Translations under genes and position numbers: made by a program | IMG/VR virus record: IMGVR_UViG_3300030329_004457 | Location: 28,325 to 92,324 of that record | Direction: 5' to 3' (one strand) | Length of the DNA stretch: 64,000 nucleotides | Source of the DNA: a virus | The notes under the pieces: generated by a model | What the model saw: only the letters and a program-made list of their open reading frames with translations | Database searches by the model: none | What the model was told of the DNA's origin: nothing | In this document: positions 1,626-13,900 of the stretch, one piece after another | Layout: every line of letters begins with the position of its first letter | Position numbering within the stretch: the stretch's first letter is position 1

Positions 1626-1869
1626 TGATGTTTTTGGTCATTCTCCCTACTCACTCAAGAAACATCAAAAACTTGGTTTTTAATGTAGGAAGACGGTTTG
1701 ACTGTGCTTGTTACTCACGTAAGACCGTTTACTTAGTTTTAATATAACAAGAGAGGTTTGGGACTACACTCCACTCAGTCAAGACCTCAAACTTGCTTTT
1801 TGTTGTGGAGAGGTGTAATTTGTGTAATCACCTACCCAGCCAAGATTACGAACTTGCTTTTGTTGTAGG
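1626..1869 (-). ncRNA. Array of 4 pseudoknotted ~60-nt RNA units (A 1626-1692, B 1693-1751, C 1753-1810, D 1815-1869)
   Basis: Each unit: P1 - A-rich strand - (C/U)AAG hairpin with pseudoknot loop - NSUGA - P1' - linker - CAA - PK'. Compensatory changes between units; G-U wobbles select the minus strand. Confidence 0.85.
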
Positions 1870-3081
1870 AGTATTGTATTCTGTAACGAGCGTATCTACG
1901 CTACGACGAGCATAGTTACCATAAGGGCACGTCACATCATACAGTCTTTGTGCTTGATGCGCTATATTGTCAGCAGCATTTGAGTGTGCGCTCACAGTAT
2001 ATCCACAGCTAATACATTTGAACGTATCCGTATCTTTTCTGTTGTTCTTATCTATATATCCACAACTATTACATCTACGAGATGTATTTTTACATGGTAT
2101 AACATAAAATGGAATACCTTTATTCTCACACATCGTTTGGAGCAATGGAATCAGATGGTCTTGACCAAACGTACCATTGGTCTGTCCGGTTTTAACACTA
2201 TCAATAGATAAAAGACTTTTAGAATCTTCAGCTTTCTGAACAATAGATTCACACACTTTCCTAATTTCATTTTTTAATTTTTTGTGTAGCCTTTTCCACT
2301 TGAGTCTAATAGGTCTTCGCTGCTTACTTCTTAACTGTCTTTCAGCAACAGGCTTTTTCTTATCTGCGTCCAATAACTTATTACTTTCACGAATATCGTC
2401 ACAGAGCTGATCTATTACTTGTGGTCGAGCGATCACCATTCCATCATTAAAAACAATCCAGTCCTTGGCTGTTTTATTTAAGTCAAAGCTTAATATAGAA
2501 GACGCTCTTTCGTATTTGGGTTTGAATGGAACATCTACAGCTACAACAAACGCGCGTTGTTTAACAATGTAGTTGCCACCAAACTTTTCTTTATGTAATC
2601 TAGATAGATTAATAGAGCCACTAAATTTAAGCTCAAATTTGCCGTAAATAGTTGGTAATGTAATAGTCTTTTTCTTTTTATCTATAGATACAAAAGCGTC
2701 TCTGTAATATAGGCTTTTACCTTTGATAGTAATGGTTGGTACTTTCTCATTTCCGTTTCTACCAAAGTATCCAGCATAACGCTCCAGCATATAAATTACT
2801 AGCTCTCTTTTTAAAGACTCATTTTTGATGTCTGGATTAGTATCAAAAATACCTAAAGAATTGAGATAGTTTTTATAGCCTGCTTTAGTATACTCTGTGC
2901 CATTATCTAAAGTTACATAACCTTCTTTAGATATATTAACGATTTTGCCAGACTTGATTTCTTTTCTGATTTGTTTAGAAATCCTATTTAATGTTGCAAA
3001 AGTTTTATCTTGTGCTTCCTTAAATTCAGTAGTAATTTCAATACCCCATACCTTTGCGTTTCTTGTGTACTGACTGTCCAT
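1846..3081 (-). CDS. TnpB/Cas12f-like RNA-guided nuclease homolog with non-canonical RuvC triad
   Basis: 411 aa; RuvC-I SFD200LN, basic bridge helix, RuvC-II position SID294SV, TSRRCNSCG...FKCISCG zinc finger, RuvC-III position SAH366SNAADNI. Confidence 0.88.
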   Translation of the reverse strand: MDSQYTRNAKVWGIEITTEFKEAQDKTFATLNRISKQIRKEIKSGKIVNISKEGYVTLDNGTEYTKAGYKNYLNSLGIFDTNPDIKNESLKRELVIYMLERYAGYFGRNGNEKVPTITIKGKSLYYRDAFVSIDKKKKTITLPTIYGKFELKFSGSINLSRLHKEKFGGNYIVKQRAFVVAVDVPFKPKYERASSILSFDLNKTAKDWIVFNDGMVIARPQVIDQLCDDIRESNKLLDADKKKPVAERQLRSKQRRPIRLKWKRLHKKLKNEIRKVCESIVQKAEDSKSLLSIDSVKTGQTNGTFGQDHLIPLLQTMCENKGIPFYVIPCKNTSRRCNSCGYIDKNNRKDTDTFKCISCGYTVSAHSNAADNIAHQAQRLYDVTCPYGNYARRSVDTLVTEYNTPTTKASS

Positions 3082-3110
3082 CGTAAGTCCTTTCCTAAAG
3101 AAATAAAAAA

Positions 3111-3234
3111 AACGGTTTGTTCCTGCTTTTCACTCAGTCAAGGTTAACCGTTGCCTTGCTTTTGTTGTGAAAAGAAATAGTTTTGGTCCCGCTGCTTTCA
3201 TGTCAAGAACTATCAAACTTGCATACGTTGAAAG
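3111..3234 (-). ncRNA. Two pseudoknotted RNA units (E 3111-3174, F 3177-3234) in the leader of the TnpB-like gene
   Basis: Same architecture as units A-D; PK pairs AACGGUU/AACCGUU and AUAGUU/AACUAU. Confidence 0.8.
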
Positions 3235-3248
3235 AGAAACATTATACC

Positions 3249-3506
3249 TTACCCCCAGACTTCATTCATTTCATCTGCTTCTATCTGATTTGAAAGCAAT
3301 ATATAAGTTAAAATTGCGCCTCTAGTGTACCCATCAATAAAAATTTCATCTTTGTAAACAGACGTTTCATTAACTATTAACAATTGATATAGTAATGGGT
3401 TTTCCGCTTTTATTTTATCTATAGCAGCTTCCCAAAAATCTTTATTATTTGTTAAAGAAGCTGTGGTCGAACCCATAGTTTCTAAGGAAATTTTAGGTAT
3501 CTTCAT
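3249..3506 (-). CDS. Hypothetical protein
   Basis: 85-aa ORF with AAGGAG RBS. Confidence 0.7.
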   Translation of the reverse strand: MKIPKISLETMGSTTASLTNNKDFWEAAIDKIKAENPLLYQLLIVNETSVYKDEIFIDGYTRGAILTYILLSNQIEADEMNEVWG

Positions 3507-3723
3507 ATCTATCTCCTTATATAAGATATTATGAAGATATATACACTGTACGGCTACTAATTTTGCTATTTATTTACTAATATTTTGTTTTAGAGATTCT
3601 CTCATATCTATTATTTTCTGTCTTGTTTCTTGCAGAGTAATAATATAGCGTAGTTGTTGTAAATATTCTTTTTGAGATAATAAAACTTCTTTCATAACAT
3701 TATCCTTGAAAAGTAAAGTTAAA

Positions 3724-3842
3724 ACGGTTTGCTTTGACTTGTTACTCACCTAAGATCCGCTACTTAGTTTTAATGTAACAAGAGAGGTTTGTACCTGCTT
3801 GTTACTCACGCAAGACCTCATACTTGGTTTTATTGTAACAAG
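3724..3842 (-). ncRNA. Two pseudoknotted RNA units (G 3724-3782, H 3784-3842)
   Basis: Same architecture; P1 CUUGUUAC/GUAACAAG. Confidence 0.85.
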
Positions 3843-3844
3843 AG

Positions 3845-3917
3845 TAGGACTGGAAGGGATTGAACCTTCGGCCACCGACTTATAAGATCGGCGCTCTAAC
3901 CACTGAGCTACAGTCCT
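3845..3917 (-). tRNA. tRNA-Ile (anticodon UAU), CCA not encoded
   Basis: Acceptor AGGACTG/CAGTCCT-A; anticodon loop CTTATAA; T arm GAAGG-TTCAATC-CCTTC. Confidence 0.92.
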
Positions 3918-3920
3918 AAA

Positions 3921-4049
3921 TGATGTTTTTGCTTTCTCTCCCTACTCACTCAAGAAACATTATAAACTTGGTTTTAGTGTAGGAAGGTGCGGTTTGTTCT
4001 TCCTCGTTACTCACCTAAGACCGCTTACTTAGTTTTTATTGCAACAAGG
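3921..4049 (-). ncRNA. Two pseudoknotted RNA units (I 3921-3986, J 3989-4049)
   Basis: Same architecture; I resembles A and J resembles B. Confidence 0.85.
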
Positions 4050-12585: not shown

Positions 12586-12923
12586 TCTGTATCTCCTATA
12601 TACAGATCATCATCATCTTCATCGACCGAATCCCAATACTTATTAATATCTTCATTATAACTGTATTTGTCTTCAAGAGTATCTAGATCATCGCCATCAT
12701 TAACAATAGTGAATAACGGTTCCACCTGAACATCCCAACCTCCAGAATTAGGACAATGATTAGCTATATACTTCATAAGATGTAAAGTTACTTCTAAATC
12801 TTGATCTTCACATGTTTCGTTTTCTGCTACTTTTACCGCTTGCGAAATAACCTCTGAAGGAATTTCAAGCTGGAGTACACTTCCCGTACTACGTCTCCGA
12901 CATACTGAAATCGCTCTAACCAT
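12582..12923 (-). CDS. Hypothetical protein
   Basis: First gene after the promoter at 12963-12990. Confidence 0.65.
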   Translation of the reverse strand: MVRAISVCRRRSTGSVLQLEIPSEVISQAVKVAENETCEDQDLEVTLHLMKYIANHCPNSGGWDVQVEPLFTIVNDGDDLDTLEDKYSYNEDINKYWDSVDEDDDDLYIGDTE

Positions 12924-12962
12924 TTTTGAGTTTCCTGTGAGAGTAAAGTGGTCGTTTCTTAT

Positions 12963-12990
12963 ATTATACTCATCGGTCAGAGAATGTCAA
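12963..12990 (-). promoter_or_regulatory. Sigma70-type promoter
   Basis: GGGG-TTGACA-N16-TATAAT. Confidence 0.75.
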
Positions 12991-13051
12991 CCCCTTGAGC
13001 ATATTTTTGGTGTATTTAGATTTTGTACGGCTTTTTTTGAAAGGAAAATCA

Positions 13052-13303
13052 ATGTCTGATATTATTGCAAAATGTATAACTGCCAATCCTATTGATAATG
13101 GTGGTATTTTAGTTGCTGCTCCTAAAAAAGACAATCAGTTAGGATCTAATTATCAAATTAATACCTATTCGTCTAATTCACCAGCAACGGGTATTATCTT
13201 TAGTAAATATGATACAAGATTTACAGGTCTTGCTCCATGTGTAAATTCATGCGGTAAAGAAGAGGTAATAGGTAGCGGCGTAGCCTGTGTGTTGTGGGTA
13301 TAA
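13052..13303 (+). CDS. Small protein, paralog of structural-region ORF 53764-53997
   Basis: Shares MSD.I, I.NGG.LV.AP and PATG..F.KYD.R.TG..PC; AAGGA RBS before ATG 13052. Confidence 0.75.
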   Translation: MSDIIAKCITANPIDNGGILVAAPKKDNQLGSNYQINTYSSNSPATGIIFSKYDTRFTGLAPCVNSCGKEEVIGSGVACVLWV

Positions 13304-13337
13304 AATAAAGCCTGTGCAGGGCAAGCAAAACAATAAT

Positions 13338-13775
13338 TTACTTAATCGAGATATGTCTTGGTTTCTTATCAGGAGGAAGTATTTCCTCTAACTCGATAAC
13401 TAGCATACCATCATTAAATTCTGCTGAATTAACTTCAACATGCTCGCCCAAAGTAAACTTTTTAATAAAGTTTCTATTGGCTATACCTCTATAAGACCTT
13501 CCATCTCCTTCTGGTGCATCCTTTTTACCAGAAACAGAAAGAACCCCGTCTTGCACTACCACTTCTAAATTAGATCTTTTATAGCCTGCAAGAGCTATTT
13601 CTACATAAGTTTTTCCCTCGTTTCTTATTACATTATAAGGGGGAAAACCAGAAGATTGATGAGTTTCGGCTGTAGTATTAAGCCGATCAAAGAAATCATC
13701 ATAACCTATAGAAAAAGGAAAGAATAAGTCTCTAAAATGTTTGGCATTTTTATGCGCTAATGTAATTTCAGTCAT
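13338..13775 (-). CDS. hsp20: Hsp20 small heat-shock protein (IbpA-like)
   Basis: FPPYNV...IALAGY...V.V.DG.L.V.G...YRGIA.R.F.K.F.L..V...A...DGML.I.L. Confidence 0.95.
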   Translation of the reverse strand: MTEITLAHKNAKHFRDLFFPFSIGYDDFFDRLNTTAETHQSSGFPPYNVIRNEGKTYVEIALAGYKRSNLEVVVQDGVLSVSGKKDAPEGDGRSYRGIANRNFIKKFTLGEHVEVNSAEFNDGMLVIELEEILPPDKKPRHISIK

Positions 13776-13781
13776 AGAATT

Positions 13782-13800
13782 TCTCCTTATAAAAGCGAGA
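13782..13800 (-). promoter_or_regulatory. ROSE-like RNA thermometer hairpin over the hsp20 RBS
   Basis: UCUC(G)CUU-UUAU-AAGGAGA with bulged G opposite the SD. Confidence 0.6.
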
Positions 13801-13837
13801 TAAAATATGTTACCCTATATAGGCGTAACTAAAAATA

Positions 13838-13900
13838 GTACTTTTGTCTCTTCTATCCTCTCACTCAAGAAGTACCAAAACTTGGTTTTATTGAGGATAG
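13838..13900 (-). ncRNA. Solitary pseudoknotted RNA unit K in the hsp20 leader
   Basis: CUAUCCUC-AAUAAAAC-CAAG..GUACUU-CUUG-AGUGA-GAGGAUAG-AAGAGA-CAA-AAGUAC. Confidence 0.85.

What the first reader, a model, noticed from the sequence alone, without database searches (positions are those of the whole stretch)
1626..13900. Eleven copies of an unrecognised RNA fold with extensive covariation
Minus-strand consensus: P1(5-9 bp)-AHHAAAAS-YAAG-loop[PK]-CUUR-N-SU-GA-P1'-N5-9-CAA-PK' (unit F is the most divergent). P1 varies with pairing kept: CUCCAC/GUGGAG, CUUGUUAC/GUAACAAG, CUUUUCAC/GUGAAAAG, CUAUCCUC/GAGGAUAG. PK also covaries: GAGGU/ACCUC, ACGGU/ACCGU, GCGGU/ACCGC, GUAAU/AUUAC, GUACUU/AAGUAC, AUAGUU/AACUAU. 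The inner stem swaps C-G with U-A, and the pair beyond the single bulge swaps C-G with G-C. AAG/CUU and CAAA occur in all 11 units. G-U pairs only work on the minus strand. Inference: an H-type pseudoknot with A-minor contacts, selected as RNA. I cannot match it from memory to a known ribozyme, riboswitch or type III antitoxin. A ligand-binding sponge or a new ribozyme remains possible.
Basis: partly seen in the sequence, partly recalled or inferred. Interest (0 to 1): 0.88.

Follow-up and report, generated by a model that had tools for sequence, protein, structure and literature searches.

The report
Phage pseudoknot RNA modules around TnpB
An uncultured marine phage carries twelve copies of a new, about 60-base knotted RNA that sits at transcript starts, next to tRNA genes and on both sides of a TnpB/Cas12f-like gene, so it may be the RNA half of an undescribed phage RNA-protein system.

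Summary
All 11 units are at the stated places on the minus strand, and a covariance model finds a 12th at 19765-19824 (+). Across 40 units from seven phage contigs, P1, P2 and the pseudoknot pair in 96% of cells, against 40-46% when the partners are slid. Most pairs show changes on both sides. Rfam 15 has no match. The family is found almost only in phage DNA, in large uncultured aquatic phages.

The finding as written omits these points:
- The units flank a vertically inherited TnpB/Cas12f-like gene (1846-3081) whose RuvC triad reads D-D-Q/H. The first downstream unit overlaps its stop codon.
- This arrangement recurs in at least five synteny contexts, including a relative 26% identical to the window's protein.
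- Units abut tRNAs, and in one relative the two halves of a permuted tmRNA, with gaps of 2-4 nt. This leaves no room for a 3' guide.
- In relatives, units begin a few bases after sigma70-like promoters.
- The 6-nt linker before CAAA changes faster than four-fold sites.

Best reading (0.4): a guide-less RNA module derived from omega RNA and bound by the TnpB-like protein. Main rival (0.3): a protein-independent module that marks transcript ends. Two related contigs carry units but no TnpB-like gene.

The scan reported the same system before on other phage DNA.

The parts
13838..13900 (-). Unit U1, a single copy about 60 nt upstream of the hsp20 start (13775). It is followed by UAUUUUU.
   Evidence: E 2e-14; the Hsp20 assignment is
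3989..4049 (-). Unit U2, first of a tandem pair. It starts just after the stop of the 68-aa ORF at 4036-4242. A TTGACA-16-TAGAAT site (4113-4086) lies 37 nt upstream.
3921..3986 (-). Unit U3, with an 8-bp P1 and a pseudoknot of 6 to 8 bp. It ends 3 nt before the tRNA 5' end.
3845..3917 (-). tRNA-Ile (anticodon UAU) with no encoded CCA, embedded in the array. There are 3 nt to U3 upstream and 2 nt (CU) to U4 downstream.
3784..3842 (-). Unit U4. It begins 2 nt after the tRNA discriminator base.
3724..3782 (-). Unit U5, last of this array. A U-rich stretch and the ribosome-binding site of a small ORF follow.
3177..3234 (-). Unit U6b, a diverged copy. Its J1/2 reads ACGUAUG, J2/1 is 3 nt and the linker is 9 nt. 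It starts just after the stop of the 85-aa ORF.
   Evidence: E 1.5e-3; E 1.8e-8
3111..3174 (-). Unit U6, which runs into a run of eight U. The TnpB-like start codon lies 29 nt after the unit's end.
1846..3081 (-). TnpB/Cas12f-like protein of 411 aa. Its RuvC residues are D200, D294 and H366 (Q or H across the family, never D). The C4 zinc finger is intact. No transposase gene lies nearby.
1815..1870 (-). Unit U7, a diverged copy. Its first 25 nt encode the last 7 codons and the stop codon of the TnpB-like ORF.
   Evidence: E 3e-5; E 1.8e-7
1753..1810 (-). Unit U8.
1693..1751 (-). Unit U9. In close relatives a different unit occupies this position.
1626..1692 (-). Unit U10, last of the downstream array. 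UUUUU and the ribosome-binding site of the 132-aa ORF (start 1605) follow.
19765..19824 (+). Twelfth unit, on the opposite strand in an AT-rich intergenic region. P1 is CUUUAAUC/GAUUAAAG and the pseudoknot is UCCGCUU/AAGCGGA.
   Evidence: (E 8e-7)
4671..4832 (-). tRNA-Leu (UAA) and tRNA-Arg (UCU), upstream in the same orientation. The same pair precedes the units in relatives G001 and G004.

Best explanation
The units are a new, phage-restricted family of small structured RNAs of about 60 nt. An 8-bp P1 encloses an A-rich internal loop and a 5-bp P2 hairpin. The P2 loop pairs with the 3' tail to form an H-type pseudoknot that stacks on P2. An invariant CAAA and a free 6-nt linker precede the 3' strand of the pseudoknot.

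The units are transcribed with the genes, either singly or in arrays. Their ends are set by the transcription start, by tRNA or tmRNA processing cuts (RNase P and 3' maturation), or by a U-run.

I read them as descendants of the TnpB omega-RNA scaffold and as the RNA partner of the phage's immobilised TnpB/Cas12f-like protein. They keep the hairpin-loop to 3'-tail pseudoknot that all TnpB and Cas12 guide RNAs share, and they begin on the stop codon of the gene. They have lost the 3' guide. Any specificity would therefore lie in the fast-changing 6-nt linker, and the complex would act on RNA or as a regulator rather than as a programmable DNA cutter.

Shown: the fold, its strand, the copies, the contexts, the linkage to the gene, and the linker's rate of change. 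Inferred: protein binding, descent from omega RNA, and what the complex does.
For: Fold and strand.

Linkage to the gene:
- In 29 loci fetched through the protein, every model hit lies on the gene's strand.
- Most hits lie 30-300 nt before the start of the gene, or 0-60 nt after or across its stop.
- In the one complete genome (G003, 174 kb), 5 of 9 units flank the gene.
- In G006, whose protein is only 26% identical, all 6 units flank or overlap the gene.
- The gene is inherited vertically in at least 5 different synteny contexts.
- A unit overlaps the stop codon in the window, G001, G003 and G006.

Protein:
- The model of the full-length protein has the Cas12f/TnpB fold (pLDDT 90.8; Foldseek E about 1e-13 to AsCas12f, ISFba1 TnpB and ISDra2 TnpB).
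- D200, D294 and the four zinc-finger Cys are invariant in 71 clusters. This argues that the protein is functional.

RNA topology: in ISDra2 omega RNA the loop of stem 1 pairs with nucleotides -5 to -3, next to the guide, and that pseudoknot is conserved in all Cas12 guide RNAs (PMC10097598).

Discrete RNA products: junctions to tRNA or tmRNA are 2-4 nt in the window and in G003.

Linker:
- It differs at 61-88% of sites between close relatives, against 22-36% at four-fold sites of the adjacent gene.
- Four of the six differences between L150 and L151, over 1635 nt, fall in one linker.

Lineage variant: within one lineage all units share the same variant, for example an extra 5' hairpin in the L057/G005 clade. 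A common partner that evolves with the lineage would explain this.
Against: - No binding data exist, and no tool here models RNA with protein.
- Units occur on contigs G008 (97 kb) and G009 (54 kb), which hold no TnpB-like gene. Positive controls for that search worked.
- Both contigs are syntenic with a clade that carries the gene. In G009 the slot is empty. In G008 the slot holds a pilin-like gene flanked by units.
- Units also head the mRNAs of unrelated genes, such as a PolIII-alpha-like gene and hsp20.
- There is no guide, which is a defining part of every known TnpB or Cas12 RNA.
- The canonical RuvC-III Asp is absent in the whole family.
- No target complementary to any linker was found in the contig.
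- Co-location could simply reflect a gene that lives in the tRNA and small-RNA region.
Confidence: 0.4

Rival explanations
1. A cis-acting transcript-end module that needs no protein. The compact knot caps the 5' ends of primary or RNase-cut transcripts and the 3' ends before tRNAs or U-runs. It would protect against exoribonucleases, insulate the folding of neighbours, or act with the U-run as a terminator or attenuator. It would travel with accessory gene cassettes as part of their expression signals. The TnpB-like gene would be just one such cassette.
For: - In relatives, units begin 0-8 nt after TTGACA-17-TATAAT promoters and end 10-40 nt before ribosome-binding sites of various genes.
- They abut tRNA and tmRNA ends.
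- Among 87 non-redundant contexts, 15 are followed at once by a T-run.
- G008 and G009 carry units but no TnpB-like gene. In G008 the units flank a DUF1559 pilin-like cargo gene in the same slot, so units and cargo come and go as blocks.
- The topology (P1, internal loop, P2, with the apical loop pairing to the 3' tail) resembles plant-virus exoribonuclease-resistant RNAs. This rests on my own knowledge and was not tested.
Against: - A plain hairpin would do for end protection. Here about 20 unpaired nucleotides are conserved across distant phages.
- Two units fill the discarded spacer of a permuted tmRNA, where there is no mRNA to protect.
- Arrays of 4-5 units around one gene are hard to explain this way.
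- The linker's excess rate of change and the strong enrichment at TnpB-like genes in five contexts are left unexplained.
Confidence: 0.3
2. A self-cleaving ribozyme that cuts arrays into monomers and frees the ends of tRNA, tmRNA and mRNA.
For: - Units lie head to tail with gaps of 0-3 nt, and with tight junctions to tRNAs.
- The C1-G53 pair is invariant and many unpaired nucleotides are conserved.
- Small ribozymes beside phage tRNAs are known, for example HDV-like theta ribozymes. This rests on my own knowledge.
Against: - No known ribozyme family matches.
- By my own threading, the order of helices differs from the HDV-like, pistol, hatchet and twister folds.
- Many units start at the transcription start, where no cut is needed.
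- tRNA-type processing already explains the junctions.
Confidence: 0.08
3. An RNA decoy or sponge made in many copies. For example, a guide-less mimic of the TnpB/Cas12 guide scaffold, or of another host RNA, that ties up a host defence or host factor.
For: - Copy number is high, behind strong promoters and inside tRNA operons.
- The family is phage-restricted: only 3 contigs of 185,579 prokaryote genomes hold it, and these look like phage contigs binned into metagenome-assembled genomes (MAGs).
- The pseudoknot core is like that of type V guide RNAs.
- RNA anti-CRISPRs are known. This rests on my own knowledge.
Against: - No host is known, and no matching host repeat or scaffold was found.
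- A decoy of a conserved host RNA should not carry a hypervariable loop.
- It does not explain why the phage keeps its own TnpB-like gene inside the arrays.
Confidence: 0.08
4. A riboswitch or ligand-sensing attenuator in 5' leaders.
For: - The position is in 5' leaders.
- The pseudoknot is followed directly by a U-run in many copies.
- Unpaired nucleotides are conserved.
Against: - Copies lie between tRNAs, inside a tmRNA spacer, after genes, and in arrays of up to 5.
- The downstream genes share no common function.
Confidence: 0.03
5. A structure at the DNA level: single-stranded recombination or transposon-end sites, like attC sites or the ends of IS200/IS605 elements, that move gene cassettes.
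For: - The fold is specific to one strand.
- Units flank cargo that is present or absent between related phages.
- A TnpB-family gene lies beside them.
Against: - No TnpA or integrase gene lies nearby.
- A loop-to-tail pseudoknot with an invariant CAAA and an A-rich strand is typical of RNA tertiary structure.
- The boundaries coincide with transcription starts and with tRNA processing sites.
Confidence: 0.04

Closest known systems
TnpB omega RNA (IS200/IS605, e.g. ISDra2) and the reRNA of IS607 TnpB
   Same: - It is encoded on the gene's strand and starts on the 3' end of a TnpB-family gene.
- The loop of a hairpin pairs with the 3' end of the scaffold, forming a pseudoknot that stacks on the hairpin (PMC10097598).
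- The partner protein has the same fold.
   Different: - It is 60 nt rather than 116-190 nt.
- It has no 3' guide, because a tRNA starts 2-4 nt after the pseudoknot.
- It is present upstream of the gene as well, in arrays, and at unrelated genes.
- There is no transposon, no TnpA and no element ends.
- The RuvC triad is D-D-Q/H.
- Rfam RAGATH-18 and the other Rfam 15 families give no hit.
- It has an internal 6-nt segment that changes fast.
Exapted TnpB/Cas12f systems with tandem guide RNAs (TldR; dCas12f with sigma-E, PMC13472631; omega-RNA arrays, PMC10691335)
   Same: - The TnpB/Cas12f relative is immobilised and has an altered active site.
- Tandem RNAs of similar sequence are encoded just downstream.
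- Look-alike non-coding RNAs lie at other loci upstream of genes.
- A sigma factor gene lies 5 kb away (8226-9008).
   Different: - Those RNAs are 85-105 nt and carry a 14-16 nt 3' guide with matching DNA targets. Here there is no guide and no target was found.
- The zinc finger and two of the RuvC acidic residues are kept.
- The sigma gene is not adjacent, and any link to it is untested.
PeSL promoter and stem-loop cassettes of T4-like phages (PMC2839356, PMC4122927)
   Same: - They are repeated intergenic regulatory motifs in T4-like genomes.
- They are tied to sigma70-like early promoters.
- They flank accessory genes that differ between close relatives.
   Different: - A PeSL is a plain terminator hairpin placed before a promoter and conserved as sequence.
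- Here the element lies after the promoter, is a three-helix pseudoknot kept by covariation, forms arrays, and abuts tRNAs.
Stable small RNAs of the phage T4 tRNA cluster (species 1 and 2; my own knowledge)
   Same: They are small structured RNAs co-transcribed with phage tRNAs and released by tRNA processing. Their function is unknown.
   Different: No sequence or structure likeness was tested. T4 has two single genes, not a dispersed multi-copy family.
Type III toxin-antitoxin RNA repeats (ToxI, CptI, TenpI)
   Same: They are tandem pseudoknotted RNA repeats in phage-related DNA beside a nuclease gene.
   Different: - Those repeats are 34-40 nt, nearly identical, and cut by a ToxN-type RNase.
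- Here no such gene is present, the helices differ between copies, the copies are dispersed, and Rfam gives no hit.

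Membership tests
Any Rfam 15 family (RAGATH-18, ToxI/CptI/TenpI, riboswitches, self-cleaving ribozymes, xrRNAs) | Match to the family's covariance model | tested here: not met
   There is no hit on any unit at gathering score over the window, at E<=10 over 1500-4300, or at gathering score in L057, L067, L082 and L143. 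Only tRNA, tmRNA and chance snoRNA-level hits appear.
TnpB omega RNA | Encoded on the gene's strand, overlapping or abutting the 3' end of tnpB | tested here: met
   U7 (1870-1815) covers the stop codon at 1846-1848. The same holds in G001, G003 and G006. However, only the last 7 non-conserved codons and the stop are overlapped.
TnpB omega RNA | Pseudoknot between a 5' hairpin loop and the 3' end of the scaffold | tested here: met
   The pseudoknot is supported by covariation in 5 of 6 pairs. The topology matches that described for ISDra2. This is a resemblance of topology only. No sequence or model match exists.
TnpB omega RNA | A guide of about 16 nt directly 3' of the scaffold, matching a DNA target beside a target-adjacent motif (TAM) | tested here: not met
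   A mature tRNA or tmRNA 5' end lies 2-4 nt after the pseudoknot. Otherwise the next unit or a U-run follows. No complementary site for the linker was found.
TnpB omega RNA | Binds its TnpB and is needed for the protein's activity | not testable with these tools
   The complex predictor takes proteins and small ligands only. No read data could be obtained.
TnpB/Cas12f protein family (for ORF 1846-3081) | Fold with WED, REC, RuvC and zinc-finger (TNB) domains | tested here: met
   Pfam Cas12f1-like_TNB, E 2e-11. PDB profile hits to Cas12f and TnpB. The AlphaFold2 model (pLDDT 90.8) aligns over its full length to 8dzj, 8iaz and 8h1j at E about 1e-13.
TnpB/Cas12f protein family (for ORF 1846-3081) | Canonical RuvC triad D-E-D | tested here: not met
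   In 71 clusters: D200 in 100%, D294 in place of Glu in 100%, and Q (39) or H (32) in place of the RuvC-III Asp. PMC10691335 describes branches with conserved rearrangements of this kind, including Asp to His, and considers them probably active.
IS200/IS605 or IS607 transposon | A TnpA gene, element ends, multiple copies, mobility | tested here: not met
   There is one copy per contig and no transposase in the window. Synteny is conserved as protein identity falls.
CRISPR array (type V) | Identical repeats separated by unique spacers; cas genes | tested here: not met
   Units abut with gaps of 0-3 nt. Every variable stretch except the 6-nt linker is paired within the unit. No cas1 or cas2 was seen among the 10 ORFs scanned against Pfam and PHROGs.
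Intrinsic terminator | A helix directly followed by a U-run | tested here: inconclusive
   In the window the last unit of each array not ending at a tRNA is followed by U's: clear U-runs after U1, U6 and U10, a short UUU after U5. In relatives, 15 of 87 contexts qualify. The helix concerned is the pseudoknot, not a hairpin, and many copies lack a U-run.

The most novel reading that the evidence does not exclude
The TnpB/Cas12f-like protein and the units form a new kind of RNA-protein recognition system. The guide has been replaced by a 6-nt, fast-evolving loop held in a rigid pseudoknot scaffold. A phage would then carry a repertoire of about ten specificities, made like tRNAs and used in phage-host or phage-phage conflict or in control of its own transcripts.
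Probability: 0.2. Interest if true: 0.92.

Novelty: new variant of a known kind. Interest (0 to 1): 0.78.

Why it matters
If the link to the protein is real, this would be a TnpB/Cas12 relative that works with a scaffold-only RNA, made in many copies by tRNA-type processing. That would widen what this protein family is known to do. It would also offer a very small RNA-protein pair (60 nt and 411 aa) for study.

Even if the link is not real, the unit is a well-supported new structured RNA family. It is specific to large uncultured aquatic phages. It sits at the very start of early transcripts, between tRNAs, and in the spacer of a permuted tmRNA. It therefore bears on how such phages build, process and stabilise their RNAs, which is still poorly understood.

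The linker that changes faster than silent sites is a concrete, testable hint of a conflict interface.

Tried and rejected
- **Known RNA families.** Rfam 15 was searched at gathering score and at E<=10. Nothing matched.
- **Cultured phages.** Neither DNA nor the protein (tblastn, E<=1e-10) has a relative among 50,697 phage records.
- **RAGATH-18 reRNA.** The paper describes a 73-nt motif with an E-loop and a kink-turn inside a 187-nt scaffold. This is not that motif.
- **Units as repeat plus spacer, or the next unit's first 16 nt as a guide.** Rejected, because single units begin with P1 right at promoters and end 2-4 nt before tRNAs.
- **Linker pairing with a target in the phage.** No complementary site for the linker plus flanks exists in the 92-kb contig apart from the unit's own opposite strand.
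- **Linker hexamers avoided or favoured in the phage's own genome.** Counts were 498 observed against 517 expected.
- **A unit variant specific to the TnpB flanks.** Rejected. In the G005 clade the extra-hairpin variant also occurs far from the gene.
- **The 354-aa ORF in the G008 slot as a hidden TnpB.** Rejected (hhalign probability 0.3%). It is a DUF1559 pilin-like protein.
- **False family.** Loci L009, L010, L012-L016 and L018 from the first pattern scan have no P1 and were set aside.
- **Co-occurrence test.** A strict test of units against the gene failed for lack of complete genomes. Only G003 is complete.
- **Complex prediction** was not used, because it takes no RNA.

Full report
**1. 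What is in the window**

The window is bases 28325-92324 of a 92-kb IMG/VR viral contig that CheckV rates 45% complete. Genes in the first 16 kb run on the minus strand. In order of transcription they are:
- tmRNA
- hsp20
- a sigma factor gene
- rIIA and rIIB
- tRNA-Leu and tRNA-Arg
- a CAP-domain protein
- a 68-aa ORF
- the RNA units with tRNA-Ile
- an 85-aa ORF
- a TnpB-like gene
- further units
- a small ORF with a weak RuvA_C hit
- a RuvB-like ATPase

The core pattern matches nine times on the minus strand and never in shuffles.

**2. The fold**

I built a covariance model (R1) from 12 units, holding only P1 and P2. It finds exactly the 11 units in the whole contig. It also finds 13 units in relative G001 and 7 in G002, all on one strand in each contig.

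I then aligned 40 units from the window and seven other contigs. On that alignment:
- The three helices pair in 96% of cells, against 40-46% when the partners are slid.
- Changes on both sides occur in 7 of 8 P1 pairs, 3 of 5 P2 pairs and 5 of 6 pseudoknot pairs.
- The pseudoknot was not part of the model, so its support is independent of the model.
- G-U pairs make the fold specific to the transcribed strand.

The conserved unpaired parts are the A-rich strand between P1 and P2, YGA on the way back, UU at the start of the loop, and CAAA before the 3' strand of the pseudoknot. The last pseudoknot pair lies directly against P2, so the two helices should stack.

A broader model (R2) adds a twelfth unit at 19765-19824 on the plus strand.

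**3. Not a known RNA**

- Rfam 15 gives nothing for the units.
- No cultured phage has similar DNA or a similar protein.
- A scan of one genome from each of 185,579 prokaryote species found true units on only three short MAG contigs, which look like binned phage DNA.

The family is therefore phage-restricted. Many relatives of the protein come from Tara Oceans and JGI metagenomes, with no cultured representative.

**4. The gene inside the arrays**

The ORF at 1846-3081 has the Cas12f1-like TNB domain and profile hits to solved Cas12f and TnpB structures. A confident model (pLDDT 90.8) aligns over its full length to AsCas12f, ISFba1 TnpB, ISDra2 TnpB and Fanzor2.

Across the 71 clusters of the family:
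- The RuvC-I Asp is invariant.
- The RuvC-II position is always Asp rather than Glu.
- The RuvC-III Asp is always Gln or His.
- The four zinc-finger cysteines are invariant.

Conserved rearrangements of this kind are known, and the authors of PMC10691335 consider them probably active.

The gene is single-copy, has no transposase beside it, and keeps its neighbours as it diverges, in at least five contexts. It is therefore an immobilised phage gene.

**5. Linkage of the units to that gene**

In the window two units precede the gene. Four follow it, and the first of these covers the stop codon.

In 29 loci fetched through the protein, every model hit is on the gene's strand, and most sit just before the start or on or after the stop.

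| Contig | Units that flank or overlap the gene |
|---|---|
| G003 (complete, 174 kb) | 5 of 9 |
| G004 | 3 of 3 |
| G006 (protein 26% identical) | 6 of 6 |

The clade of L050 to L066 has the same layout, built from a variant unit. That variant carries an extra 5' hairpin whose loop holds the 5' strand of P1.

**6. The units are also more than a TnpB appendage**

*tRNA and tmRNA junctions.*
- In the window, tRNA-Ile sits in the array with gaps of 3 and 2 nt.
- In G003 the same tRNA is flanked in the same way, and a tRNA-Leu starts 4 nt after the last downstream unit.
- Also in G003, two units fill the spacer between the two halves of a permuted tmRNA, with gaps of 2 and 3 nt.

These junctions leave no room for a 3' guide. 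They imply that tRNA-processing cuts define the ends of the units.

*Promoters and leaders.* In G002, G003 and several other phages, one or two units begin 0-8 nt after near-consensus TTGACA-17-TATAAT promoters. They end 10-40 nt before the ribosome-binding site of assorted genes, often a PolIII-alpha-like gene. The last unit of an array is often followed at once by a U-run.

*Contigs without the gene.* Contigs G008 (97 kb) and G009 (54 kb) hold units but no TnpB-like gene, and positive controls for that search worked. Both are syntenic with the L057 clade:
- In G009 the slot holds two tiny ORFs and no unit.
- In G008 the slot holds a DUF1559 pilin-like gene with a unit before it, and a promoter plus a unit after it.

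Units and cargo thus come and go together. This recalls the PeSL cassettes of T4-like phages.

**7. A fast-changing linker**

I tested this on four close relatives from metagenomes (alignments).
- The linkers differ at 61-88% of sites. Four-fold degenerate sites of the adjacent gene differ at 22-36% (binomial P from 5e-3 to 5e-8).
- The rest of each unit is about 95% the same.
- L150 and L151 differ at 6 of 1635 aligned positions, and four of those lie in one linker.
- Copy number also varies: L149 has one extra unit, and the third downstream position holds different units in different relatives.

I found no partner for the linkers.

**8. Reading**

The fold, its strand, the twelve copies, the contexts, the linkage to the gene and the linker's rate of change are shown. 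What the RNA does is inferred.

I favour, at 0.4, a guide-less descendant of the omega-RNA scaffold that serves as the RNA partner of the TnpB-like protein. Three things point that way:
- the position of the units on the gene's 3' end;
- the hairpin-loop to 3'-tail pseudoknot shared with all TnpB and Cas12 guide RNAs;
- the recurrence of the layout around very distant homologues.

The main rival, at 0.3, is a protein-independent module that marks and protects transcript ends and travels with gene cassettes. The contigs without the gene and the promoter-proximal copies support it.

The ribozyme, decoy, riboswitch and DNA-level readings remain possible at low odds.

**9. Limits**

- No read data could be obtained, so expression and RNA ends are not shown.
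- Only one complete genome was available, so co-occurrence of units and gene could not be tested strictly.
- The host is unknown.
- Other agents of this scan reported the same system on other phage DNA. I used their linker claim as a lead and tested it here.

Noticed in passing
window 19765-19824 (+): A twelfth, diverged unit lies on the opposite strand, in an AT-rich intergenic stretch (about 19400-20100) with no long ORF directly downstream.
   Followed up: partly
L143 694-1123 (G003:C1:53193-53622): The complete relative G003 encodes a permuted, two-piece tmRNA (ARAGORN tmRNA*; Rfam RF04321, 91 bits; tag AKPSFALAA). Its intervening segment consists of two units. The window's own tmRNA (14502-14843, minus strand; tag AEPSFAMAA) is of the ordinary one-piece kind.
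   Followed up: partly
L011 2320-2336: In relative G001 the tRNA-Ile between the units is gone. Only its last 15 nt or so (ccttccagtcctact) remain after the unit that corresponds to U3.
   Followed up: no
L057 5740-5990 and 7200-7370; L154 165-310: In one clade every unit has an extra 5' hairpin whose loop carries the 5' strand of P1. Both helices covary between phages, which suggests a double pseudoknot of about 75 nt.
   Followed up: partly
L149 2489-2547 versus window 1753-1692: Close relatives (TnpB-like protein 89-94% identical) differ in the number of units. One has an extra unit. They also differ in which unit sits at the third downstream position.
   Followed up: partly
window 1207-1605 (-) and 321-1238 (-): A 132-aa ORF with only weak hits (RuvA_C, E 0.002) overlaps the start of a RuvB-like AAA ATPase (RuvB_N, E 2e-50). 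The pair follows the downstream array in the window and in G001.
   Followed up: no
L144 6006-7070 (G008): A phage-borne DUF1559 protein with an N-terminal methylation (pilin-like) motif sits where related phages carry the TnpB-like gene. This family is common in Planctomycetes (my own knowledge), which may hint at the host.
   Followed up: no
G006:C1:3737-4861: The distant TnpB-like homologue in G006 is matched in two pieces, and the better match contains two in-frame TAA codons. It may be broken, or the match may be misread.
   Followed up: no
L078, L082, L085, L087, L095, L099 (downstream of their units): In several phages one or two units form the leader of a gene that starts MDWFPL or MNWYPL followed by ..HYSL. 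This looks like the PHP-domain N-terminus of a DNA polymerase III alpha subunit (my own reading, not scanned).
   Followed up: no
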